Shown: in pieces, positions 1 through 46,406 of the stretch
Layout: every line of letters starts with the position of its first letter
How positions within the stretch are numbered: position 1 is the stretch's first letter
Assembly: GCA_964016885.1 (NCBI GenBank)
Contig: OZ024741.1
Coordinates: 98,332,001-98,396,000, forward strand
DNA: 64,000 bases
Direction: 5' to 3'
From: Eledone cirrhosa
Taxonomy: Eukaryota
Translations under genes and position numbers: made by a program
Notes under the pieces: model-generated
What the model saw: only the letters and a program-made list of their open reading frames with translations
The model's database searches: none
What the model was told of the DNA's origin: nothing

Positions 1-428
1 TATTTTCTGGTGGTGGGAGAGGGTGGTGATTGAGATGGTTGGAGGTCATTGGTTAATGGGTTTCAAGAAAAGGGAATTCTTTAAAACTATATTTAGAGAA
101 ATAAAGGCAGAAAAAATCAAGCTCCCATTGAGAGGCACTCCTGATTTTTAAGGTTCATTTATTCCAAGCAAACAGTAACTATTCATTGGTAAGGTCTGCC
201 AAAATGATCAGGTGTCTACAATCACACACATAACCTCTAAATATAGTTTTTAAAGAATTCCCTTTCCTTGAAATCTATCAACCAATGACCTTCCCTCATT
301 CCAATAACCACCCTCTTCTACTACCAGAAAATGTATAAATACCACCATATTACTTGGACCGTCGGCTTTCTGATGATTTCTGCCGAATGAAACAGCTCTA
401 GTCCTGTAGAAGCCATTTCTATATTAAA

Positions 429-4073: not shown

Positions 4074-4340
4074 GATAGTGGGGTTAGGAACCCTCGGGGA
4101 AATGGAAAAAGATGAGTATTGACGTACATGGAAGTCGAACCCACATCTGCGGTTATCCATATATATATATATATTTGGGTGATGTGCTGGTATAATGGTA
4201 GCACAGTGATCTGGATAACCGCAGATGTGGGTTCGACTCCCATGTACGTCAATACTCATCTTTTTCCATTTCTCCGAGGGTTCTTAACCCCACTATCAGG
4301 CTAAATGATTTCTTTTATTTCTTTAGACAAATACGGCGAT
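4073..4340 (+). mobile_element. tRNA-derived short element with fold-back duplication, embedded in (TA)n
   Basis: 4073-4159 is the reverse complement of ~4212-4298; arms are separated by (TA)n plus the 5' half of the tRNA-like head. Confidence 0.65.
4181..4251 (+). pseudogene. tRNA-like cloverleaf (tRNA pseudogene / SINE head)
   Basis: Acceptor GATGTGC/GTACGTC, A box TGGTATAATGG, T arm GTGGG-TTCGACT-CCCAT; anticodon stem has a mismatch and loop CTGGATA is non-canonical. Confidence 0.65.
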
Positions 4341-4358: not shown

Positions 4359-5194
<836 letters not shown>

Positions 5195-5195
5195 T

Positions 5196-5632
5196 ATTGA
5201 TTTAGAAACTCAAAATAGTCTCTTACAATAAAATAGCTCTAGGAAAGAGATTTTTCCGAGCCGTATATTATAATTGAATATAAAAGAAAAACGAACACAG
5301 ATATATACATATATGTGTTCAAATCGTAAGGGACCAGATTCGCTAAGGTGAAAAGAATACTAACTCTAGACAATAGGGCTTGCCAGACTCAATTTAAGAA
5401 TAAATCAAGAAAATAAATACAAACCTGAATTGTGGTAACTACCAATCACCCAGACAACGTTGGTAATGTTGTTTCGCAAAATTAATTGTGAAGAGGAATA
5501 CCAATTCTTGCTCATCTGTGGGTGAAGAATTAGTATCCTGGACACTTCTAAGTATATTAAAAAATTGAATAGTGTGCATATATATAATAACGCACATGGT
5601 ATCTGAACTTGACGTGTCTCACAAACTCACAA

Positions 5633-5636
<4 letters not shown>
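5196..5636 (-). mobile_element. Diverged family A copy, different start point, with CAGAUGA-core hammerhead at 5447-5524
   Basis: Homologous to 4936-5139 then 4501-4860; stem I caccca/tgggtg covaries with caccta/taggtg of the 4680 copy. Confidence 0.65.
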
Positions 5637-5665
<29 letters not shown>

Positions 5666-5670
<5 letters not shown>

Positions 5671-6835
5671 ATAAATGCTCTGAAATAGCGATATATATTT
5701 ATAATATAGACATAGAATATTCGAAAATATTCTGTATGTTTATAATAAACATTTTGAAGACCTAATCGCTATAGAATAGAATACGTCACGTATTACAATT
5801 AGATTCTCGATAAAAGCAAGGGAAGTAATCTACGCGTTTCATTCTTGTTAGAAATCTTCAGGACTACATATCCAGTGCTTTTATCGAGAATGACACAGCT
5901 AGAGACTTATAGAATACTTAGCTGTGTACAGGAACTGGTTTGAAAGAGCGGTTGCCGGTCCGGCAGAAATTAGAAATTGGAATAAATGCTCTGAAATAGC
6001 GATATATATGTGAATATAGACATAGAATATTCGAAAATATTCTGTATGTTTATAATAAACATTTTGAAGACCTAATCGCTATAGAATAGAATACGTCACG
6101 TATTACAATTAGATTCTCGATAAAAGCAAGGGAAGTAATCTACGCGTTTCATTCTTGTTAGAAATCTTCAGGACTACATATCCAGTGCTTTTATCGAGAA
6201 TGACACAGCTAGAGACTTATAGAATACTTAGCTGTGTACAGGAACTGGTTTGAAAGAGCGGTTGCCGGTCCGGCAGAAATTAGAAATTGGAATAAATGCT
6301 CTGAAATAGCGATATATATGTGAATATAGACATAGAATATTCGAAAATATTCTGTATGTTTATAATAAACAGTCCTGAAGATTTCTAACAAGAATGAAAC
6401 GCGTAGATTACTTCCCTTGCTTTTATCGAGAATCTAATTGTAATACGTGACGTATTCTATTCTATAGCGATTAGGTCTTCAAAATGTTTATTATAAACAT
6501 ACAGAATATTTTCGAATATTCTATGTCTATATTCACATATATATTGCTATTTCAGAGCATTTATTCCAATTTCTAATTTCTGCCGGACCGGCAACCGCTC
6601 TTTCAAACCAGTTCCTGTACACAGCTAAGTATTCTATAAGTCTCTAGCTGTGTCATTCTCGATAAAAGCACTGGATATGTAGTCCTGAAGATTTCTAACA
6701 AGAATGAAACGCGTAGATTACTTCCCTTGCTTTTATCGAGAATCTAATTGTAATACGTGACGTATTCTATTCTATAGCGATTAGGTCTTCAAAATGTTTA
6801 TTATAAACATACAGAATATTTTCGAATATTCTATG

Positions 6836-6845
<10 letters not shown>
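5666..6845. mobile_element. Retrozyme-like element, family B: 310-nt tandem units plus inverted tandem units
   Basis: ttggaataaatg at 5666/5977/6287 (period 310-311); 6372-6845 is the inverted multimer (period 310); near-identical copies; (TA)n flanks. Confidence 0.85.
6679..6721 (+). ncRNA. Minimal hammerhead ribozyme (also 5825-5867 -, 6135-6177 -, 6371-6411 +)
   Basis: gtagtc-CTGAAGA-tttctaacaagaat-GAAAC-gc-GTA-gattac; palindromic ACGCGT in place of stem III, as in dimer-cleaving PLE/retrozyme hammerheads. Confidence 0.8.
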
Positions 6846-6890
<45 letters not shown>

Positions 6891-7013
6891 GGAGGTGAGT
6901 TTTATTGTAGTACAATAAAGCAATGCAGATATCGGATAAGAAGCACTCTACAGTTTGTGGGACTGGAGTATGCATAATATAAGATCAAAAGATGGTTAAA
7001 GGAGTTCAATATA

Positions 7014-7080
7014 TTTTATTATGCGCATTTCAAAAACAAACATCATCAAACAATAATATTTGTGTTTTCATCAGATAAAA
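7014..7080 (-). ncRNA. pLTR hammerhead ribozyme (also 10875-10941 -, 12026-12092 +)
   Basis: ttttat-CTGATGA-aaac..gttttt-GAAA-tgcgca-TA-ataaaa; palindromic TGCGCA stem III, AUA triplet. Confidence 0.8.
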
Positions 7081-8265
7081 CAGGAGAACATGATATGAAG
7101 GCTAAAAAAACACTTGTTGATAGTGCAGTTTTAAATCAACATATGAAAAGTAGTTTTAGATTGATGTGTGATATTGGGAAAAATATTTTATTTAGAGAGG
7201 GGGGGGAGAGAAAAGGATGAAAAGGGAAGGAGATGAGAGGGAGAGATGGGTGATAGAGAGAAAGAGATAGTTTTTATAACTGAGAGGAGATATATTTTAT
7301 ATAGAGGGGTTGGAAGATACTGTATAAATTAAAAATTTTGAAAATTAACGAAGGGAGGATATGTGCGAGGAAAAAATATATTATATTTAGGGAGGGGGGG
7401 TGGAAAGGATGAAAAAAAGGGGAGGAGATGAGAGTGAAGGTGGAAAGGGAGAGATGGGTGATAGAGAGAAAGAGATAGTTTTTATAACTGAGAAAAAGAT
7501 ATAATGTTTTAATATAGAGAGGTTGGGAACCGTTGGAAGATAATGTATAAATTAAAGGAATTTGAAAATTAACGAAGGGAAATTATGTATGAAGATAGAG
7601 AGAAAAAATAATAATTGTGGGTGAATATTCTAACGTCAAAAGAAGAAATGTAGGAATTTTAAAATTAGCAAAGAGAAAAAGTTTATGTGTAGAAGGATTT
7701 GAGAAAAATAATGTGAAGTTAAAGTTTGTATATTGAATTCATATGTATTAATAATGAGTTCGTTGATGGGGAGAAAAAAATAATAATAAATTAAGGATGA
7801 AATTGAGATTAAAAAGATTTATGATAGAGAGAAAAAATAATAATGATTGCGGATGAATACTCAAAATGTCAAAAACAAATGTTATTGTTTTACGAGGAGA
7901 TAGAATGAGGGTAATGAGTAAACGAGTATTATAGAGTGTATAATGCCCTTTAAAGTAAGGTAGATGGGTATATTTTAAAGAATATATGAGTATATATTAA
8001 AAAAATATATAATAATAAATTAAGGATGAAATTGAGATTAAAAAGATTTATGATAGAGAGAAAAAATAATAATGATTGCGGATGAATATTCAAAATGTCA
8101 AAAATAAATGTTATTGTTTTACGAGAAGATAGAATGAGGGTAATGAGTAAACGAGTATTATAGAGTGTATAATGCCCTTTAAAGTAAGGTAGATGGGTAT
8201 ATTTTAAAGAGGTGTATGTATATGTGCCTTTGAGAAAAGATTCTAAATTGATAAAGAATTGAATA

Positions 8266-10668
8266 TTAACTGTATACTTTGTGAAAAGTTCTATGGAATT
8301 TATGCAGGCAGATTGAAAACAAATCTGAGCGTCTATTTATTATGGATTCTAGGTTAGAGATAATGGTAAATTTTTCATTTAGGCAGAGATTACAGATTTT
8401 AGATAGAGAGCTGTTCAAGTATGAGGATGCAGAAGAAATCTTTTTCCAAAAGATGTTATATTTAATGTTTTTGTCTTTTAAGGACCATATGAGTTCTGAG
8501 AGAGCAGTGTTAGTTCTTTTAAGTTTGTATTTGAAAGATGAATGATGATTATAGAGACGAGCTTTAAAAGAGGTGGAAGTGGAGCCAAAATAGGTGAAGG
8601 AATTGGTGCTAGTTATAATTTTACATTCATAAATTAAGTTTTTATCGAGGCAATGGTTGTTGAGAGGACATTTATTTTTAATGCGGCAGTTGCAATTAGA
8701 GAGATTATTAATGAGTGATCTAGTGTTATCTATAGAAGGAATTGGATTGGAGAAGTTGTTTGCAATAGGAATAATAGGAATAATAGTTTCTTGATTTAGA
8801 GTTGGATTATGAACATTTAGCGAAGTTGTGTTTGACGTTGCATTTGGGTTTACAGAAGTTAGCCTAGGGTTTACAATGACGTCAGGAGTACTATTACTGT
8901 TATTATGAAATTCAATATTGGAAGGAAGAGATTTAGTATTTAATATTTTGTTGTTGTGTTTAGAGATGATGTTGGAAATATTGGAGGATGTAGAATACGA
9001 AAATTTGATGGTGTGTTTGTTAAATATTTTACTATAGATATGTGAGGGAGGGAAGCATTTATTTAAGGCACTAAAAAATAATTTAGGAATATTGTTATTA
9101 ATAGAGATGGAGAAAGGAGCATTATACCAGATTATGTTTTTGTATCTAGGTCTTTTATTAAAATTATTGGAATGGTTATGATTAAATATTCTACTGTAAG
9201 TTTTCCTAGAATTTGTTTCTTTATTATATTTGATTTTATCTGGATAGCCGGCTTTAGAAAGTGCGTTATTATAGTAATTGGCGTTAGCATCAAAGATGTT
9301 TTTATTAGAAGATATGTTAGATATTCTATTTCCAATATTATTAACTATAGCATTCTTGATATTGGTAGGATGGTTAGATTTAAAGTTAACATAATTAAGA
9401 TTCTCATTGTTTTTATGGTAAGGGTAATATAGGCCAGTGTCAAGATTAAGAGATACATCCAAGAAATTAGCTAGTTTGGTACTATTATCAAATTCAATTT
9501 TTAGGTTATGTTGGTTAAAGAGATTACGTATATTGTTCTTAATAATATTAAGTTTAACTATATTGCAATTTAGGATAGTAAAGAGTCCATCGTCACGATA
9601 AATTCCACCGCGAAGTTGAGGAATTTTCCGACTCAAAGAGTTCAAAATGAAGATACCAATTAAATCAGTCAATTGGGATGAATCGGATGCTCCCATTGTG
9701 ATGTCGAAGTTGTTAGAGGTATCGGCTCTGGTCCAATATTCGTTGTTGAACTCTAGGATGGTTTTACGTGCGGTGAGGATGATGTGAAGTTCATCTGTGG
9801 TGATGTCAGAATATTTAAGTGCGAAAGATAGAGCATTATTGAGAAGTGAAGGCGAAATGGAGGAATAGTAGCTGGCAATATCGAATTGAATAAATTTTAG
9901 TTTGTTTTTATTATCCAATTTGTTGAACCAGCCAATCACTTCAGAAGTACCAAACCATAAATTTAGGTTTAAAGAAGAGCAATTAGAACTAACCTGTGGG
10001 ATAATCCTATCCAAGATGGCTTTACTAACAACCCCCAGATCAGATTTAGAGGGGGCGATTAATCTAACAGGTAGTTCAGTGCGAAAATTGTTTTTGTGAT
10101 CCTTGAGATTTATCCTCGGAGTTCTTGGGAGGAATGGTTCGGTCTTTTTTTCAATGCCAAGTTTTGACATAATCTCATAGGCTTCAAGGTTTATGCATTC
10201 TAAATTTTCATGGTTGGTTTTACGATACTTTTTCCTAAGTTCCTTTAGGATAAGGTTGTTATAATTATCCTTGGAAATACCATATAGGTTATTGGTTTTG
10301 TCAGAGTGGACTAAAACATTTTTTGAGGAATTTAGGTTAGAGATTGTGTTCTTGAGATTTACAAGGTGCTCTTGTCCTTTGTAAGGGTATCTCTTGAATT
10401 TAAGATTTTTTATAATTTTAGTTAATTCTTCCTCGAATTGTGCTAGATTTTTGTTGGAAGGAGGATTTCGTCTGGAATTAAAAAGATGATCGAGGAAGTT
10501 GTGTTCTTTGGTATGAAAGTTCCCTTTTAGGCGCTGGTCATAGAAATAGGCTGTCCATCTAAGTCTTCTTACGAAGGAGTCAGTTTTTTCAATAAGAAGT
10601 TTGGTGAATTCAGATTTACCAGGTATAGGAATGTCTTTAGTTGAATTGGTTATGTTGTAATAATCCAT
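8266..10668 (-). CDS. PLE reverse transcriptase + C-terminal GIY-YIG endonuclease (uninterrupted)
   Basis: FDIASYY, ITMGASDS, GIYRDDGL, FLDV, SNHP, WYNAP, CNCx5CPx4C linker, NLIY..YFGST..FKARLYNH, CNLC..E, CLH. Track start 10728 is TTG; ATGs at 10695 and 10668. Confidence 0.92.
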   Translation of the reverse strand: MDYYNITNSTKDIPIPGKSEFTKLLIEKTDSFVRRLRWTAYFYDQRLKGNFHTKEHNFLDHLFNSRRNPPSNKNLAQFEEELTKIIKNLKFKRYPYKGQEHLVNLKNTISNLNSSKNVLVHSDKTNNLYGISKDNYNNLILKELRKKYRKTNHENLECINLEAYEIMSKLGIEKKTEPFLPRTPRINLKDHKNNFRTELPVRLIAPSKSDLGVVSKAILDRIIPQVSSNCSSLNLNLWFGTSEVIGWFNKLDNKNKLKFIQFDIASYYSSISPSLLNNALSFALKYSDITTDELHIILTARKTILEFNNEYWTRADTSNNFDITMGASDSSQLTDLIGIFILNSLSRKIPQLRGGIYRDDGLFTILNCNIVKLNIIKNNIRNLFNQHNLKIEFDNSTKLANFLDVSLNLDTGLYYPYHKNNENLNYVNFKSNHPTNIKNAIVNNIGNRISNISSNKNIFDANANYYNNALSKAGYPDKIKYNKETNSRKTYSRIFNHNHSNNFNKRPRYKNIIWYNAPFSISINNNIPKLFFSALNKCFPPSHIYSKIFNKHTIKFSYSTSSNISNIISKHNNKILNTKSLPSNIEFHNNSNSTPDVIVNPRLTSVNPNATSNTTSLNVHNPTLNQETIIPIIPIANNFSNPIPSIDNTRSLINNLSNCNCRIKNKCPLNNHCLDKNLIYECKIITSTNSFTYFGSTSTSFKARLYNHHSSFKYKLKRTNTALSELIWSLKDKNIKYNIFWKKISSASSYLNSSLSKICNLCLNEKFTIISNLESIINRRSDLFSICLHKFHRTFHKVYS

Positions 10669-12151
10669 GTTGTAGAAGAAGAGGTGAAGGACCATCAAAA
10701 GGTATCCAATATGAGAGTAAGCGCTCAACCGTTAAGGAGCAAGTTAATGTAGGAGGTGAGTTTTATTGTAGTACAATAAAGCAATGCAGATATCGGATAA
10801 GAAGCACTCTACAGTTTGTGGGACTGGAGTATGCATAATATAAGATCAAAAGATGGTTAAAGGAGTTCAATATATTTTATTATGCGCATTTCAAAAAGAA
10901 ACATCATCAAACAATAATATTTGTGTTTTCATCAGATAAAACAGGAGAACATGATATGAAGGCTAAAAAAACACTTGTTGATAGTGCAGTTTTAAATCAA
11001 CATATGAAAAGTGGTTTTAGATTGATGTGTGATATATAAATCTTTTTAATCTCAATTTCATCCTTAATTTATTATTATATATTTTTTTAATATATACTCA
11101 TATATTCTTTAAAATATACCCATCTACCTTACTTTAAAGGGCATTATACACTCTATAATACTCGTTTACTCATTACCCTCATTCTATCTCCTCGTAAAAC
11201 AATAACATTTGTTTTTGACATTTTGAGTATTCATCCGCAATCATTATTATTTTTTCTCTCTATCATAAATCTTTTTAATCTCAATTTCATCCTTAATTTA
11301 TTATTATTTTTTTTCTCCCCATCAACGAACTCATTATTAATACATATGAATTCAATATACAAACTTTAACTTCACATTATTTTTCTCAAATCCTTCTACA
11401 CATAAACTTTTTCTCTTTGCTAATTTTAAAATTCCTACATTTCTTCTTTTGACGTTAGAATATTCACCCACAATTATTATTTTTTCTCTCTATCTTCATA
11501 CATAATTTCCCTTCGTTAATTTTCAAATTCCTTTAATTTATACATTATCTTCCAACGGTTCCCAACCTCTCTATATTAAAACATTATATATTTTTCTCAG
11601 TTATAAAAACTATCTCTTTCTCTCTATCACCCATCTCTCCCTTTCCACCTTCACTCTCATCTCCTCCCCTTTTTTTCATCCTTTCCAACACCCCCCCCCC
11701 CTCCCTAAATATAATATATTTTTTCCTCGCACATATCCTCCCTTCGTTAATTTTCAAAATTTTTAATTTATACAGTATCTTCCAACGGTTTTCAACCCCT
11801 CTATATAAAATATATCTCCTCTCAGTTATAAAAACTATCTCTTTCTCTCTATCACCCATCTCTCCCTCTCATCTCCTTCCCTTTTCATCCTTTTCTCTCC
11901 CCCCCCCTCTCTAAATAAAATATTTTTCCCAATATCACACATCAATCTAAAACCACTTTTCATATGTTGATTTAAAACTGCACTATCAACAAGTGTTTTT
12001 TTAGCCTTCATATCATGTTCTCCTGTTTTATCTGATGAAAACACAAATATTATTGTTTGATCATGTTTGTTTTTGAAATGCGCATAATAAAATATATTGA
12101 ACTCCTTTAACCATCTTTTGATCTTATATTATATATATATATATATATATA

Positions 12152-13059
12152 CAATTGAATATATGATAGGGATAAACACTGATACAAGTATACATGTGTT
12201 TGCATTGCAAATGACCAAGTTAGTTAGATTGAAAAATACTAATGAAAATAATACGGTTTGCCTGTCTTGATTTAAAATAATAAATCAATAAAAACAAATC
12301 TATATTGGCAATAGCCGTGATACCTGGACAAATTTTAAATTTAAAATTTTGAATTTGTTTCGCAACATTCCTGTGCTCTTCTGCGGGTATCCAATTAGTA
12401 TTTTTCAATCTAGCTAACTTGGTCATTTGCAATGCAAACTCATGTATACTTGTATCAGTGTTTATCCCTATCATATATTCATTTGTATTACACGGCTCAG
12501 AAACATTCCTTTCTTTGAGCTATTTAATTGTAAAAGACTATTTGAGTTTATAACTCTATATATAATATTCTCGGCTCCATGCGTTGAGCTAATTTTTAGT
12601 CCCATAAAACCGGCTGCTATTTTTAGCGACACGAGTATAGGACGTGCTAGACGCTGAGACACATGTGCGTTCAACAGCACATTTCTCTCAGTCTTCTTAA
12701 GTATTTTGAAGTGAAACTTACCAATTTCTGAATACCTGAGGAAGAGCACAGGAATAGGAAATTTCACTTAATTGTTGCGAAACAAATTTAAAATTTAAAA
12801 TTTAAAATTTGTCCAGGTATCACGGCTATTGCCAATATAGGTTTTTTTATTGATTTATTATTTTAAATCGAGACAGGCAAACCGTATTATTTTAATTAGT
12901 ATTTTTCAATCTAGCTAACTTGGTCATTTGCAATGCAAACACATGTATACTTGTATCAGTGTTTATCCCTATCATATATTCATTTGTATTACACGGCTCA
13001 GAAATATTCCTTTCTTTGAGCTATTTAATTGTAAAAGACTATTTGAGTTTATAACTCTA
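12152..13059. mobile_element. Family A relative: partial unit plus inverted ~1.3 x 501-nt unit, variant hammerheads at 12319-12391 (-) and 12732-12820 (+)
   Basis: aattagtatttttcaatc at 12393 and 12894; 12152-12367 is inverted relative to the right part; shares sequence with 4501-5139; cores CAGAAGA / AGGAAGA. Confidence 0.7.
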
Positions 13060-13070
13060 TATATATATAT

Positions 13071-15217
<2,147 letters not shown>

Positions 15218-40257: not shown

Positions 40258-40618
40258 GTTGAGAAGGTAACACACCAGAGAGAGTTACACACGCTGATGA
40301 ACCGAGACTACCATTTCTTTCAACAAATTTTCTGGTGAAACATATCTTTGGATTTGTACGTGTGTTATTTAGTTATAGAGGTATTTATTTACGCTTTAAT
40401 TTATATTTTTAATTATCGTGTCTATAGTCTGCCTTTCATAGGTTATAGAATCCATACACTGGTGGTTTTTTCCCTGTATTATTGATAACGCACTATATAT
40501 CTCTCTCTGGTGTGTTACCTTCTCAACATATTATATTTTAAAGGGCTCAGGATCTCTTCCCCTTTGAGCACATTATTTACAGGGAATAACGACGGCCTAT
40601 GCCTCCGTTAATTTATCG
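40251..40618 (+). mobile_element. Short non-coding element with inverted end and canonical hammerhead
   Basis: 40251-40283 is inverted at ~40501-40535; (TA)n flanks. Confidence 0.65.
40287..40365 (+). ncRNA. Type I hammerhead ribozyme
   Basis: acacacg-CTGATGA-accgaga..tctggt-GAAAC-atatc ttt ggattt-GTA-cgtgtgt; 7-bp stem I. Confidence 0.85.
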
Positions 40619-44886: not shown

Positions 44887-46406
44887 GACGTAAAATAAGA
44901 AACTCATAAAAAGGAACTTACTAAAATTTCACTCCAACTAATTAGTTTCTGAAAGGGAATAAACATGGTTTCCGAATGGACGCATGGAGAAAACCTTTCG
45001 TCATCAGGAAGTCTGTTCTCAGCTAAGTTCCCAGGCGATGCGTGGACACAGGGAACTTATACAAAAATAATTCAGTGGATGGAAAAAAGCAAGCGTGGAC
45101 TAAATTCCAAGACATTGAAAAAATCACTGCCTACTTGGTCAGTGGCAAATTCAAAAGAATCAATCACGTGACATCAAGGTTAATCAGTGCGGAGTAGGGT
45201 GTTAAAAAGACAGTAGCCGAACCATTACTGTGAACTATAGTAGCAGTTTTGGCAAATTTTTGCTCAACAAAATAATTTAGAGATAATTATAAAGAATTAG
45301 TATATCTACCAACATATATATACAGATGCATACCTATGCTAGCAAATATATAGGTTTTGTCTAAGTAACTTTGTGGTTCAATGCAACGGGATGCAGAACA
45401 ATTATATGAAAGACGTAAAATAAGAAAATTATAAAAATTAACTTACTTACTAAAATTTCACTCCAACTAATTAGTTTCTGAAAGGGAATAAACATGGTTT
45501 CCGAATGGAACGCATGGAGAAAACCTTTCGTCATCAGGAAGTCTGTTCTCAGCTAAGTTCCCAGGCGATGCGTGGACACAGGGAACTTATACAAAAATAA
45601 TTAAGTGAATGGAAAAGAGCAAGCATGGACTAAATTCCAAGACATTGAAAAAATCACTGCTACTTGGTCGGTGGCAAATTCAAAAGAATTAATCACGTGA
45701 CAATCACGTGAAATTTAGTAAGTAAGTTTAATTTTTTATAATTTTCTTATTTTACGTCTTTCATATAATTGTTCTGCATCCCCTTGCATTGAACCACGAA
45801 GTTACTAAGACAAAATCTATATATTTCCTAGCATAGGTATGCATCTATATATATATGTTGGTAGATATACTAATTCTTTATAATTATCTCCAAATTATTT
45901 TGTTGAGCAAAGATTTGCCAAAACTGCTACTATAGTTCATAGTAATGGTTCGGCTACTGTCTTTTTAACACCCCACTCCTCACTGATTAACCTCGATGTC
46001 ACGTGATTGATTCTTTTGAATTTGCCACCGACCAAGTAGGCAGTGATTTTTTCAATGTCTTGGAATTTAGGGCATGCTTGCTTTTTTCCATCCACTGAAT
46101 TATTTTTGTATAAATTCCCTGTGTCCACGCATCGCCTGGCAACTTAGCTGAGAACAGACTTCCTGATGACGAAAGGTTTTCTCCATGCGTTCCATTCGGA
46201 AACCATGTTTATTCACTTTCAGAAACTAATTAGTTGGAGTGAAATTTTTGTAAATTAATTTTTATAATTTTCTTATTTTACGTCTTTCATATAATTGTTC
46301 TGCATCCCCTTGCATTGAACCACAAAATTACTAAGACATAACCTATATATTTGCTAGCATAGGTATGCATCTGTATATATATGTTGGTAGATACACAAAT
46401 TCTTTA
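44881..46406. mobile_element. Retrozyme-like element, family C (1.5 x 525-nt unit plus ~1.3 inverted units)
   Basis: gaaagacgtaaaataa at 44883 and 45408; inversion point ~45705; hammerheads 44931-45012 (-), 45460-45542 (-), 46158-46240 (+). Confidence 0.85.
46158..46240 (+). ncRNA. Type I hammerhead ribozyme (family C)
   Basis: acttc-CTGATGA-cgaaag..ctttca-GAAAC-taatta-GTT-ggagt; palindromic AACTAATTAGTT stem III. Confidence 0.8.

What the first reader, a model, noticed from the sequence alone, without database searches (positions are those of the whole stretch)
5666..6845. Young 310-nt multimeric retrozyme-like element with highly structured monomer
Seen: about 2.3 direct units then 1.5 inverted units, nearly identical, one minimal hammerhead per unit with palindromic ACGCGT; each unit is full of hairpins (attctcgataaaagca/tgcttttatcgagaat enclosing the ribozyme, acacagcta/tagctgtgt, atacgtcacgtat, gccggtccggc). 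Known: metazoan non-LTR retrozymes are short tandem units with type I hammerheads that yield circular RNAs, and minimal hammerheads cleave as dimers. Inference: a 310-nt circRNA was reverse-transcribed by rolling around and inserted by PLE machinery; it sits directly beside an intact PLE.
Basis: partly seen in the sequence, partly recalled or inferred. Interest (0 to 1): 0.72.

Follow-up and report, generated by a model that had tools for sequence, protein, structure and literature searches.

The report
Young hammerhead retrozyme, Penelope-style insertions
This is one of about a thousand near-identical insertions of a 310-base non-coding repeat that carries a hammerhead ribozyme motif, a known kind of element (an animal retrozyme), and the shape of these insertions matches the footprint of Penelope-type retrotransposons, which likely copy it.

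Summary
Window 5665-6371 is 2.3 head-to-tail copies of a 310-nt unit. 6372-6845 is 1.5 inverted copies. (TA)n lies on both sides. Each complete unit has a type I hammerhead motif whose helix III is a short palindrome, so it can only pair between two copies.

The family is dispersed and very young. There are at least 1040 insertion ends genome-wide, and 175 of 226 sampled units are identical.

New here:
- Insertions are two arms whose ribozyme-sense 3' ends face outward.
- One outer end is always at unit position 1-3 and the other at about 28 (27 of 27 sampled loci; 26 of 26 neighbouring end pairs on one chromosome).
- The inner junction varies.
- A 14-nt target duplication is readable at one locus.

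Tandem copies, an inverted 5'-truncated copy, a one-sided tail and (TA)n targeting are the published hallmarks of Penelope-like element (PLE) insertions.

The neighbouring 821-aa ORF belongs to an active Hydra-clade PLE with its own hammerhead. It shares no sequence with the unit, so the adjacency probably reflects a shared target.

A 320-nt sister family keeps all three helices through compensatory changes, including core C3-G8 to U3-A8.

A circular RNA, self-cleavage and rolling reverse transcription remain untested. This is a new member of a known kind.

The parts
5636..5666 (.). (TA)n microsatellite, left flank of the insertion (target)
   Evidence: period 2, 15.5 copies, 100%
5665..6371 (-). 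Arm 1: 2.3 tandem 310-nt units, ribozyme-sense on the minus strand. Its outer (left) end is the 'b' end at unit position 2 and carries the 27-nt one-sided tail.
5825..5867 (-). Hammerhead motif 1: helix I 6 bp, core CUGAAGA, helix II U.U plus 3 bp, GAAA, palindrome ACGCGU, cleavage predicted after the A opposite plus-strand base 5831.
   Evidence: (descriptor); cleavage not tested
6135..6177 (-). Hammerhead motif 2, identical to motif 1
6372..6853 (+). Arm 2: 1.5 inverted units, ribozyme-sense on the plus strand. Its outer (right) end is the 'a' end at unit position about 28, where the unit's own ATATATAT run merges with (TA)n (boundary ambiguous, 6845-6853).
6361..6381 (.). Central junction of the two arms. 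The 5'-truncated ends meet at unit positions about 96 and 201. The two BLAST alignments overlap by 11 nt.
6372..6411 (+). Hammerhead motif cut by the junction; only 3 of the 6 nt of the 5'-side helix I strand remain
   Evidence: not returned by the descriptor
6679..6721 (+). Hammerhead motif 3, complete, in the inverted arm
6838..6887 (.). (TA)n shared by the right end of the array and the 3' end of the neighbouring PLE
6886..11035 (-). Neighbouring Hydra-clade PLE, sense arm of 1.07 units. It comprises the 3' UTR 6886-8265, the ORF 8266-10731 (821 aa, open), and an upstream partial copy 10747-11035 of the last 289 nt (pLTR, 99%).
7012..7082 (-). The PLE's own hammerhead motif (helix I 8 bp, CUGAUGA, long helix II, palindrome AUGCGCAU). 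It is repeated at 10873-10943 (-) and 12024-12094 (+).
11036..12137 (+). Inverted 5'-truncated copy of the PLE tail (equals 6969-8210). Its outer end stops 83 nt short of the true 3' end, at a TA-rich site next to (TA)n. This is the same asymmetry as in the 310-nt array.
   Evidence: (I2, I4, I5, D3)

Best explanation
The array is one insertion of a young, non-coding, hammerhead-bearing 310-nt repeat family (a non-LTR retrozyme) that is likely copied from its ribozyme-sense RNA into (TA)n microsatellites by the reverse transcriptase and endonuclease of a Penelope-like element, with each of the two cut DNA ends predicted to prime its own cDNA.

Shown:
- The unit, its hammerhead motif and its strong fold.
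- More than 1000 dispersed, nearly identical insertions.
- The layout of each insertion: two arms with fixed outer ends and a variable inner junction, one outer end at unit position 1-3 ('b') and the other at about 28 ('a').
- (TA)n flanks.
- A 14-nt target duplication at one locus.

Inferred:
- Fixed outer ends plus variable inner ends mean 5' truncation, so cDNA synthesis started at the outer ends. The template was therefore always the ribozyme-sense RNA.
- One DNA end starts at site b with 0-6 nt of homology, whatever the target. The other anneals to the unit's AUAUAUAU run (site a), which shifts when the target is not (TA)n.
- The two cDNAs are then joined at short homologies, in the manner proposed for L1 twin priming (recalled).
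- Arms of up to 19 units need either a circular template copied round and round or an uncleaved multimeric transcript. I lean to the circle (about 55:45) because no unit boundary scars are seen. This is not shown.
- The hammerhead would cut multimeric transcripts as a double hammerhead through its palindromic helix III. A host ligase would close the monomer, as shown for other animal retrozymes (PMC7229834).
For: Family and youth:
- At least 223 matches, most at 99-100% identity, on many chromosomes.
- The exact b-end-in-(TA)n pattern occurs 525 + 515 times and the exact a-end pattern 257 + 253 times; the reversed-pattern controls give 0.
- 175 of 226 full units in 38 loci are identical.

Layout, in 38 loci (the window plus 37 others):
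- 30 are '+ then -', 1 is '+-+-', 7 have one arm, and 0 are '- then +'.
- 27 of 27 two-armed loci with both ends readable pair one a end with one b end (13 ab, 14 ba). Neither arm is systematically the longer (14 v 13).
- Unbiased check from the listed genome-wide ends on the first 264 Mb of contig C1: 26 convergent a/b neighbours within 20 kb, 0 a/a, 0 b/b, spans 211-14,949 nt.
- The b end stays at position 1-3 in non-TA flanks (L018, L030, L031). The a end moves to 30-40 (L049, L030, L018, L036).
- Junction overlaps are mostly 0-14 nt.
- L030 has a 14-nt duplication abutting both ends.

Published PLE hallmarks (PMC8557442, passages and section 11 read): partial tandems, an adjacent inverted 5'-truncated copy, a 30-40 bp tail at one end only, and (TA)n preference.
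- The neighbouring PLE shows the same asymmetry: full 3' end at 6886, inverted arm ending at the equivalent of 6969.
- An 84-89% identical fragment of its tail in L048 shows it as well (ends at q1 and q92).

Hammerhead:
- Descriptor hits against 0.03 per shuffle.
- 273 identical motifs in 344,530 bases of other loci.
- Two copies co-fold into a double hammerhead at -15.3 kcal/mol, against -4.6 each alone.
- The 320-nt sister family (57% identical over the unit) keeps the motif with both-sided changes at core 3-8 (C-G to U-A) and at two helix II pairs. All slid controls give 0. By eye there are two more such changes in helix I, and a different perfect palindrome in helix III.
- U3-A8 covariation is known in natural, active hammerheads (PMC3088659, passage read).
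- The sister family follows the same a/b rule (7 of 7 two-armed loci).

Fold: ribozyme-sense monomer -72.5 kcal/mol, z -5.2; other strand -82.8, z -5.0; 0 of 100 shuffles each.

Possible helper active now: all 55 scored copies of the neighbouring ORF are full length at 99-100% identity, and 52 have no stop.
Against: - No RNA evidence of any kind could be obtained, and cleavage and circles are untested.
- Rfam reports no hammerhead at E <= 10.
- No outer end (0 of the readable ends) and no inner end lies within 10 nt of the predicted cleavage site at unit position 166. That is 0 of 67 inner ends by my reading, where about 4.5 would be expected if placement were uniform. The DNA therefore carries no footprint that the ribozyme ever cuts.
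- One-armed insertions start at either a (5) or b (2), so 'b first, a second' is not a strict order.
- No PLE with sequence similarity to the unit was found. The neighbour has none, so the helper is unidentified.
- Arrays with recurring variant units (L033, L021, L037_38) do not keep the period that a multimeric circle would give.
- All 37 comparison loci were picked from a list that showed only + strand matches.
- The covariation rests on two lineages only.
Confidence: 0.8

Rival explanations
1. Same element and same PLE-type integration, but the template is a linear, uncleaved multimeric read-through transcript of an existing array. On this reading the hammerhead is a passenger that plays no part in mobility, and there is no circle and no rolling.
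For: - No insertion end coincides with the cleavage site.
- Minimal and short-helix-III hammerheads cleave poorly in vitro (PMC4209133, passage read), so multimers could survive.
- Some arms mix unit variants irregularly. In L014, 314-nt and 310-nt units are interleaved, as a transcript of a heterogeneous array would give.
- The periods predicted for multimeric circles fail at L033 unit 9, L021 unit 11 and L037_38 unit 6.
- Craig et al. note that PLE clades without hammerheads proliferate well (PMC8557442).
Against: - The hammerhead is kept through compensatory changes between the 310-nt and 320-nt families, which argues for selection on the fold.
- 11 of 31 arms with 3 or more full units are perfectly uniform, and 77% of all units are identical.
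- Arms reach 19 units, about 6 kb.
- No scars at any unit boundary in 226 units.
- None of these points excludes a linear template.
Confidence: 0.33
2. A foldback-type DNA transposon, or a palindromic satellite that spreads as DNA. Such elements have long inverted arms built of tandem subrepeats of unequal length (known for Foldback elements; recalled).
For: Each insertion is a long inverted repeat made of tandem units, with arms of unequal length.
Against: - The two termini are never the same: 27 of 27 loci and 26 of 26 end pairs are a/b. A transposase that recognises terminal inverted repeats needs matching ends.
- 7 of 38 loci have a single arm with a ragged inner end.
- Inner junctions fall anywhere in the unit, with microhomology.
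- The coding PLE next door has the same layout.
- There is no ORF: the longest stop-free stretch in a trimer is 59 aa.
Confidence: 0.03
3. A local satellite or an assembly artefact (foldback chimera) with no mobility.
For: Inverted duplications can be assembly or library artefacts. PMC8557442 notes that such structures trouble assemblies.
Against: - More than 1000 separate places have the same two end types, against 0 reversed-pattern controls.
- A target duplication is readable at L030.
- Contigs from runs filed under three other organism labels hold the unit as a closed 340-nt k-mer cycle.
Confidence: 0.01

Closest known systems
Metazoan non-LTR retrozymes (Cervera and de la Pena 2020, PMC7229834, abstract and passages read; Li, Clavereau and Pollet 2026, bioRxiv 10.64898/2026.07.22.740005, results section and passages read)
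   Same: - Short tandem units (150-450 bp; here 310) of low GC (here 34%).
- One type I hammerhead per unit.
- No ORF, LTR, primer-binding site (PBS) or polypurine tract (PPT).
- Dispersed copies whose target duplications are longer than 4 bp.
- A proposed link to PLEs.
- A U.U mismatch at the base of helix II and a need for dimers, as in the axolotl motifs.
   Different: - RNA circles and cleavage are shown for coral, mussel and axolotl but not here.
- A term search of the two papers finds no description of the two-armed layout, the a/b end rule, the one-sided tail or (TA)n targeting for retrozymes. PMC7229834 has 0 hits for 'inverted', 'microsatellite' and 'target site'. In the preprint, 'inverted' occurs only in a reference title and 'microsatellite' only in a remark on satellite birth.
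- The preprint favours local amplification from a PLE tail. Here the arrays arrive as arrays.
Hammerheads in PLE pseudo-LTRs (Cervera and de la Pena 2014, PMC4209133, passages read)
   Same: - A short palindromic helix III that can only pair between two copies.
- Motifs occurring near each other on opposite strands.
- The neighbouring PLE here carries such a motif in each pLTR copy.
   Different: The 310-nt unit codes for nothing and has no sequence similarity to the neighbouring PLE's tail. Its helix I (6 bp) and helix II (4 positions) fit that paper's 'canonical' metazoan form more than its min-HHR form (long helix II, short helix I).
Hydra clade of C-terminal-endonuclease PLEs (Craig et al. 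2021, PMC8557442, section 11 read)
   Same: For the neighbouring ORF:
- DKT in place of DKG.
- RW(K/R) motif in 14 of 22 aligned relatives (RWT in this copy).
- CxCX5C linker.
- GIY..YxG..R..H..E..N, with CxxC before the E and CxH after the N.
- No CCHH pair between GIY and YIG.
- Hammerhead in the tail and insertion into (TA)n.
   Different: - The unit is 3.86 kb, against 'generally <3 kb'.
- No phylogeny was made.
- Pfam, NCBIfam and PDB sequence searches are blank.
- That this family is the helper of the 310-nt unit is not shown.
Twin priming of L1 inversions (Ostertag and Kazazian 2001; recalled, not read here)
   Same: Two cDNAs primed from the two DNA ends, both copied from sense RNA, with 3'-proximal ends outward and 5' ends joined at microhomology in the middle.
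   Different: - Here it is the rule (31 of 38 loci), not the exception.
- The two start sites are two fixed places 27 nt apart.
- The template is a repeat or a circle.
- The held library has no paper tying PLEs to twin priming (three papers only co-mention the terms, judged from the search listing).

Membership tests
Non-LTR retrozyme | Tandem units of about 150-450 bp, low GC | tested here: met
   310 nt, 2.3 + 1.5 units here and up to 19 units per arm elsewhere; GC 34.2%
Non-LTR retrozyme | A type I hammerhead in each unit | tested here: met
   Descriptor hits in every complete unit. Rfam models do not report it.
Non-LTR retrozyme | Non-coding; no LTR, PBS or PPT | tested here: met
   No ORF of 100 aa or more over 5666-6845. 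The longest stop-free stretch in a trimer is 59 aa. No terminal direct repeats other than the units themselves. PBS and PPT were not searched for specifically.
Non-LTR retrozyme | Dispersed genomic copies with target-site duplications | tested here: met
   1040 exact b-end sites. 14-nt duplication at L030. Most targets are (TA)n, where a duplication cannot be read.
Non-LTR retrozyme | Expressed as unit-length linear and circular RNA | not testable with these tools
   No RNA run is listed for this sequence. The contigs laid cannot tell RNA from DNA.
Hammerhead ribozyme, type I | Conserved core CUGANGA ... GAAA ... U-H in type I order | tested here: met
   CUGAAGA, GAAA, then U followed by A at the cleavage position, with helix I open. 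The only variable core position seen is N7: U in one L021 copy and in the diverged L036 copy, and a T-to-A difference at window 5857 in contigs of three runs.
Hammerhead ribozyme, type I | Helices I, II and III supported by covariation | tested here: met
   310-nt v 320-nt family: both-sided changes at 3 of the 5 pairs counted, with slid controls at 0. Two more in helix I by eye. Helix III is a different perfect palindrome. Only two lineages.
Hammerhead ribozyme, type I | Match to the curated Rfam hammerhead models | tested here: not met
   No hammerhead family at gathering score in the whole window, nor at E <= 10 in 5500-7000. The models expect a helix III hairpin, which this motif lacks.
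Hammerhead ribozyme, type I | Self-cleavage at the predicted site | not testable with these tools
   Needs transcription of a dimer in vitro. Co-folding of two motifs favours the double hammerhead, which is a prediction only.
PLE-type insertion (for the 310-nt array) | Partial tandems, an adjacent inverted 5'-truncated copy, a one-sided tail of tens of bases, and (TA)n preference (PMC8557442) | tested here: met
   31 of 38 loci have two arms; a 27-nt tail at exactly one end in 27 of 27; (TA)n flanks at most ends
Penelope-like element, Hydra clade (for the neighbouring ORF) | RT with YxDD, DKT, RWK; CxCX5C linker; C-terminal GIY-YIG without CCHH; hammerhead in the pLTR; (TA)n target | tested here: inconclusive
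   All motifs were read in the alignment and the architecture. Atlas neighbours carry GIY-YIG, RVT_1, HTH_animal and DUF8422 (leads only). No profile library or PDB sequence search gave a hit. The structure prediction could not be started. No tree was made.

The most novel reading that the evidence does not exclude
Both ends of one Penelope endonuclease break prime on the same small hammerhead RNA circle at two fixed sites 27 nt apart and run round it repeatedly. If so, this family's thousand fresh insertions are a natural record of rolling-circle, twin-primed reverse transcription in an animal, and would make the unsolved PLE integration mechanism readable from genome sequence.
Probability: 0.3. 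Interest if true: 0.75.

Novelty: new member of a known kind. Interest (0 to 1): 0.5.

Why it matters
Animal retrozymes were described in 2020. Their link to Penelope-like elements has so far rested on shared hammerheads, co-occurrence and tail homology.

This family adds a different kind of evidence. It has more than 1000 near-identical insertions, and their ends, arms, one-sided tail and (TA)n targets reproduce the peculiar PLE insertion footprint in a 310-nt, non-coding element.

Craig et al. (PMC8557442) name the origin of the tandem/inverted structures and the microsatellite bias as the open mechanistic question for PLEs. A tiny element with two sharply defined start sites is a convenient substrate for asking it.

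The sister family gives a natural C3-G8 to U3-A8 hammerhead in an animal repeat.

None of this changes the class of the element.

Tried and rejected
- RNA evidence: the look-up of sequencing runs listed no RNA holder. Six runs of unknown kind hold the unit. Four were laid as contigs and cannot show strand, ends or circles. In three runs the unit is a single 340-nt contig (310 + 30, a closed k-mer cycle), which fits both tandem DNA and a circle.
- Rfam: no hammerhead. The one strong hit in 6289-6567 (MIR8562, 61 bits against a gathering score of 211) is the palindrome centre read as a hairpin, and I discard it.
- Neighbouring ORF: blank in Pfam, in Pfam on four homologues, in NCBIfam, in PDB with the single sequence and in PDB with a 22-sequence profile.
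No fold search was made.
- Helper identity: sensitive BLAST of the unit against the neighbouring PLE gave nothing (best E 0.069). Nothing else in the window matched at E <= 1e-3.
- Rolling on multimeric circles: the same multi-change variant recurs at spacings of 2, 3, 4 and 6 units (L034, L033, L021, L037_38). The next predicted occurrence is absent in the three arrays where it could be checked. I read these recurrences as block duplications or heterogeneous templates.
- I first took the 320-nt relative to lack a hammerhead, because my descriptor demands CUGANGA. Alignment showed a complete motif with U3 and A8, so that reading was dropped.
- Script slips: one search timed out and one search printed nothing because of a faulty pattern. 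Searches replaced them.
- Earlier notes of this scan by place and by sequence returned nothing.
Full report
**What is there**

Window 5665-6371 holds 2.3 head-to-tail copies of a 310-nt unit (99% matches; two 300-nt stretches 100% identical). From 6372 to about 6845-6853 the same unit runs in inverted orientation for about 1.5 copies (inverted arms of 359 nt at 100% and 520 nt at 97%; unit map).

(TA)n lies on both sides (5636-5666 and 6838-6887). The unit is 34% G+C, like the window, and has no reading frame longer than 59 codons.

Both strands fold far better than shuffles:
- ribozyme-sense strand: -72.5 kcal/mol, z -5.2, 0 of 100 shuffles;
- other strand: -82.8 kcal/mol, z -5.0, 0 of 100 shuffles.

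**The ribozyme motif**

On the minus strand of the direct units and the plus strand of the inverted ones lies a type I hammerhead arrangement:
- a 6-bp helix I (GUAGUC with GAUUAC);
- the core CUGAAGA;
- a helix II of U.U plus three pairs;
- GAAA;
- the palindrome ACGCGU, read as A15.1 and U16.1 around CGCG;
- then A, after which cleavage is predicted.

Helix III has no loop, so it can only form between two copies. Two 43-nt motifs co-fold into the double hammerhead at -15.3 kcal/mol, against -4.6 each alone.

A descriptor I wrote finds three complete motifs in the array (5867-5825 and 6177-6135 on the minus strand, 6679-6721 on the plus strand). A fourth is cut by the arm junction.

The whole window gives 16 descriptor rows, about 14 distinct sites in several families, against 0.03 per shuffled window (100 shuffles).

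Rfam reports none of them, neither at gathering score nor at E <= 10 over the array. The identification therefore rests on the descriptor and on comparison with the sister family below.

In the terms of Cervera and de la Pena 2014 (PMC4209133, passages read), the motif fits the canonical metazoan type I form. That form has helix I of 6 bp, helix II of 4 bp, and a helix III of 1-2 bp capped by a 2-4 nt palindromic loop, and is thought to act as a dimer. It fits this better than the fully minimal PLE form.

**Comparative support**

One fetched locus (L047, 7751-8654) held a 320-nt relative, 57% identical to the 310-nt unit over its whole length (184 of 323 columns). That family is itself abundant and older: 1367 first-look candidates, and 137 matches among the 40 scored, mostly at 92-98% identity.

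In the homologous place it has a complete hammerhead in which everything that pairs has changed together:
- Core position 3 is U and position 8 is A (C-G in the 310-nt family).
- Two helix II pairs changed on both sides, and the U.U at the base of helix II becomes G-C. The tool counts 3 of 5 pairs with both-sided changes, and none when the partners are slid.
- Helix I is rebuilt, with two more both-sided changes by eye.
- Helix III is a different perfect palindrome, followed by the classical GUC.

The U3-A8 form is in 19 of 21 hits of the first pattern I ran, and the commonest full version is 11 of 25 hits (two places are counted twice there because L047 and L051 overlap).

Perreault et al. 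2011 (PMC3088659, passage read) state that C3 and G8 pair, that they covary to U3-A8 in several natural hammerheads, and that such cores are active in vitro.

This is evidence for selection on the hammerhead fold, from two lineages only.

**Dispersal and age**

The window's own genome is 3.0 Gb. It has at least 223 matches to the unit, most at 99-100% identity, on many chromosomes (a lower bound, 39 of 169 candidates scored).

Exact-pattern counts, which the tool gives as whole:
- the unit's 'b' end joined to (TA)n: 525 + 515 places;
- the 'a' end: 257 + 253 places;
- reversed-pattern controls: 0.

In 38 loci (the window plus 37 fetched), 175 of 226 full-length units are identical, and the other 51 are 43 different variants.

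This is neither a local satellite nor an assembly artefact.

**Anatomy of the insertions**

I mapped the unit on the 38 loci. All 37 comparison loci were chosen from the listing, which showed only + strand matches, so each has a + arm by selection.

Layouts found:
- '+ then -': 30 loci;
- two such insertions side by side: 1 locus;
- a single arm: 7 loci;
- '- then +': 0 loci.

In ribozyme-sense terms, the two arms always have their 3' ends outward and their 5' ends at the centre. The outer ends are fixed and the inner ends fall anywhere in the unit. That is the pattern of 5' truncation.

The outer ends are of two kinds: 'b' at unit position 1-3 and 'a' at about 28, where the unit's own ATATATAT run begins. 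In all 27 two-armed loci where both ends can be read, one end is a and the other b (13 ab, 14 ba). Three loci had an end in a gap or at the edge of the fetched stretch. Neither arm is systematically longer (14 v 13).

So one end, and only one, carries a 27-nt extension.

An independent check used the places listed on the first 264 Mb of contig C1. There, 26 convergent neighbours within 20 kb are a/b, none is a/a or b/b, and the spans run from 211 to 14,949 nt.

Further details:
- The b end stays put in flanks that are not (TA)n (L018, L030, L031), while the a end shifts to 30-40 (L049, L030, L018, L036).
- Junctions mostly overlap by 0-14 nt.
- Most targets are (TA)n, where duplications cannot be read.
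- L030 has a 14-nt duplication abutting both ends, and L018 shares a 14-nt string in its two flanks.
- The 320-nt family obeys the same rule in 7 of 7 two-armed loci (L052-L058).

**Comparison with PLE insertions**

Craig et al. 2021 (PMC8557442; passages and section 11 read) list as hallmarks of PLE insertions:
- strong 5' truncation;
- partial tandems;
- an inverted 5'-truncated copy at the 5' end;
- a 30-40 bp tail often present at one end only;
- a bias for microsatellites, (TA)n for several clades.

They call the origin of these structures an open mechanistic question. The 310-nt family shows every one of these features.

The coding PLE beside the array has the same layout. Its sense arm of 1.07 units ends at its true 3' end (6886). 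Its inverted arm (11036-12137) stops at the equivalent of 6969, which is 83 nt short, at a TA-rich site next to (TA)n. An 84-89% identical fragment of that tail in L048 has ends at q1 and q92.

**The neighbour**

ORF 8266-10731 (minus strand, 821 aa, open) has relatives at E 1e-136, one of them named from an octopod. Motifs read in a 22-sequence alignment:
- invariant YRDDG;
- DKT (17 of 22);
- RW[KR] (14 of 22; RWT in this copy);
- a CxCX5C linker;
- a C-terminal GIY..YxG..R..H..E..N with CxxC before the E and CxH after the N;
- no Cys pair between GIY and YIG.

This is the description of the Hydra clade in PMC8557442, section 11, which also notes hammerheads and (TA)n insertion for that clade.

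Atlas neighbours carry GIY-YIG, RVT_1, HTH_animal and DUF8422 (leads only). Pfam, NCBIfam and PDB sequence searches are blank, and the fold could not be predicted because the queue was full. I therefore give the clade as likely, not proven.

The family is active or very recently active. All 55 scored genomic copies are full length at 99-100% identity, and 52 have no stop. It carries its own hammerhead with the palindrome AUGCGCAU in each tail copy.

**Is the neighbour the helper?**

The unit and this PLE share no sequence (best E 0.069). That PLE family touches only one of the 37 other sampled arrays (L048). L031 holds a short 78% piece 3.5 kb from its array.

Fragments of other PLE families (28-50% protein identity) lie somewhere in the fetched stretch at another 8 loci, several within a few hundred bases of the array. 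PLE-like sequence is very abundant in this genome (102,962 first-look candidates).

I read the adjacency in the window as two elements that use the same (TA)n target. It is not a unit. The helper remains unidentified, and the neighbour is a candidate only because it is active now and targets the same sites.

**Mechanism**

Shown: the layout above.

Inferred:
- cDNA synthesis began at the outer ends, so the template was always the ribozyme-sense RNA.
- The two arms are two cDNAs primed from the two DNA ends and joined at short homologies. This is the scheme proposed for L1 twin priming (recalled). The held library has no paper linking it to PLEs (search listing only).
- Site a is a microhomology site for a (TA)n 3' end.
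- Site b is used with as little as 1-2 nt of homology and may be chosen by the enzyme.

Why the two ends always differ is not explained in detail. One-armed insertions start at a (5) or b (2), so the order is not strict.

**Circle or multimer?**

The DNA does not decide.
- For a continuous template: arms reach 19 units, 226 units show no boundary scars, and 11 of 31 arms with three or more units are uniform.
- Against simple rolling on multimeric circles: recurring variants do not keep their period in L033, L021 and L037_38.
- Against any visible role of cleavage: no outer end, and none of 67 inner ends, lies within 10 nt of the predicted cleavage site (my reading).
- No RNA data were available.

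**Verdict**

The reading as a young retrozyme inserted by PLE machinery is well supported at the DNA level. The circular RNA, the rolling and the cleavage are untested. The adjacent PLE is real and intact but probably a co-tenant of the microsatellite.

It is a new member of a known kind. Its insertion footprint is not described in the retrozyme papers I searched for those terms. Earlier notes of this scan on two other pieces of the same genome reached the same reading; they are not independent evidence.

Noticed in passing
L047:7751-8654 and L052-L060: A 320-nt sister family, 57% identical to the 310-nt unit, older (mostly 92-98% identity between copies) and abundant. It has the same two-armed a/b insertions in (TA)n and a hammerhead whose core has U3 and A8 in place of C3 and G8.
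   Followed up: yes
window 370-408 (+), 4749-4686 (-), 40294-40358 (+), 46163-46235 (+), 45537-45465 (-), 45007-44936 (-), 33422-33353 (-): Further hammerhead-descriptor hits of other families. One is a canonical type I motif with a hairpin helix III at 370-408; a relative in L049 has a fully covarying helix I. Another family has the palindrome ACUAAUUAGU. None is reported by Rfam.
   Followed up: partly
window 13742-15087 (-): A second, different PLE-like reading frame (36% identical to residues 410-816 of the neighbour's protein, and 53% over residues 342-384). It ends next to another (TA)n at 15110-15184.
   Followed up: partly
window 4181-4251 (+): A tRNA-like sequence (Rfam tRNA, 40.2 bits). 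It sits among 98-nt repeats (4565-4662, 5052-5149, 12214-12311) and may be part of a tRNA-derived repeat.
   Followed up: no
window 7179-7600 and 7780-8210: The PLE's 3' UTR is itself internally repetitive: purine-rich repeats of about 208-225 nt, and a 229-nt tandem (1.9 copies, 98%).
   Followed up: no
window 5857 (and 6167): The variable core position N7 differs between sources. It is A in 273 of the 276 retrozyme-type motifs found in the other sampled loci, and in the window's three. Contigs of runs X2, X3 and X6, and a large share of X1, read T-to-A here on the plus strand, which gives CUGAUGA.
   Followed up: partly
runs X2, X3, X6: Runs filed under three other coded organism labels each hold the unit as a single 340-nt contig (310 + 30, a closed k-mer cycle) with 1-2 differences. 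Whether these runs are DNA or RNA, or closely related species, is unknown.
   Followed up: no
L033, L034, L021, L037_38, L014: Identical multi-change variant units recur inside single arms at spacings of 3, 2, 4 and 6 units. L014 interleaves 314-nt and 310-nt units. The periods do not continue, which suggests block duplication or heterogeneous templates.
   Followed up: yes
window 6289-6567: Rfam's MIR8562 model matches the centre of the palindrome (61 bits against a gathering score of 211). This is an artefact of the inverted repeat.
   Followed up: yes
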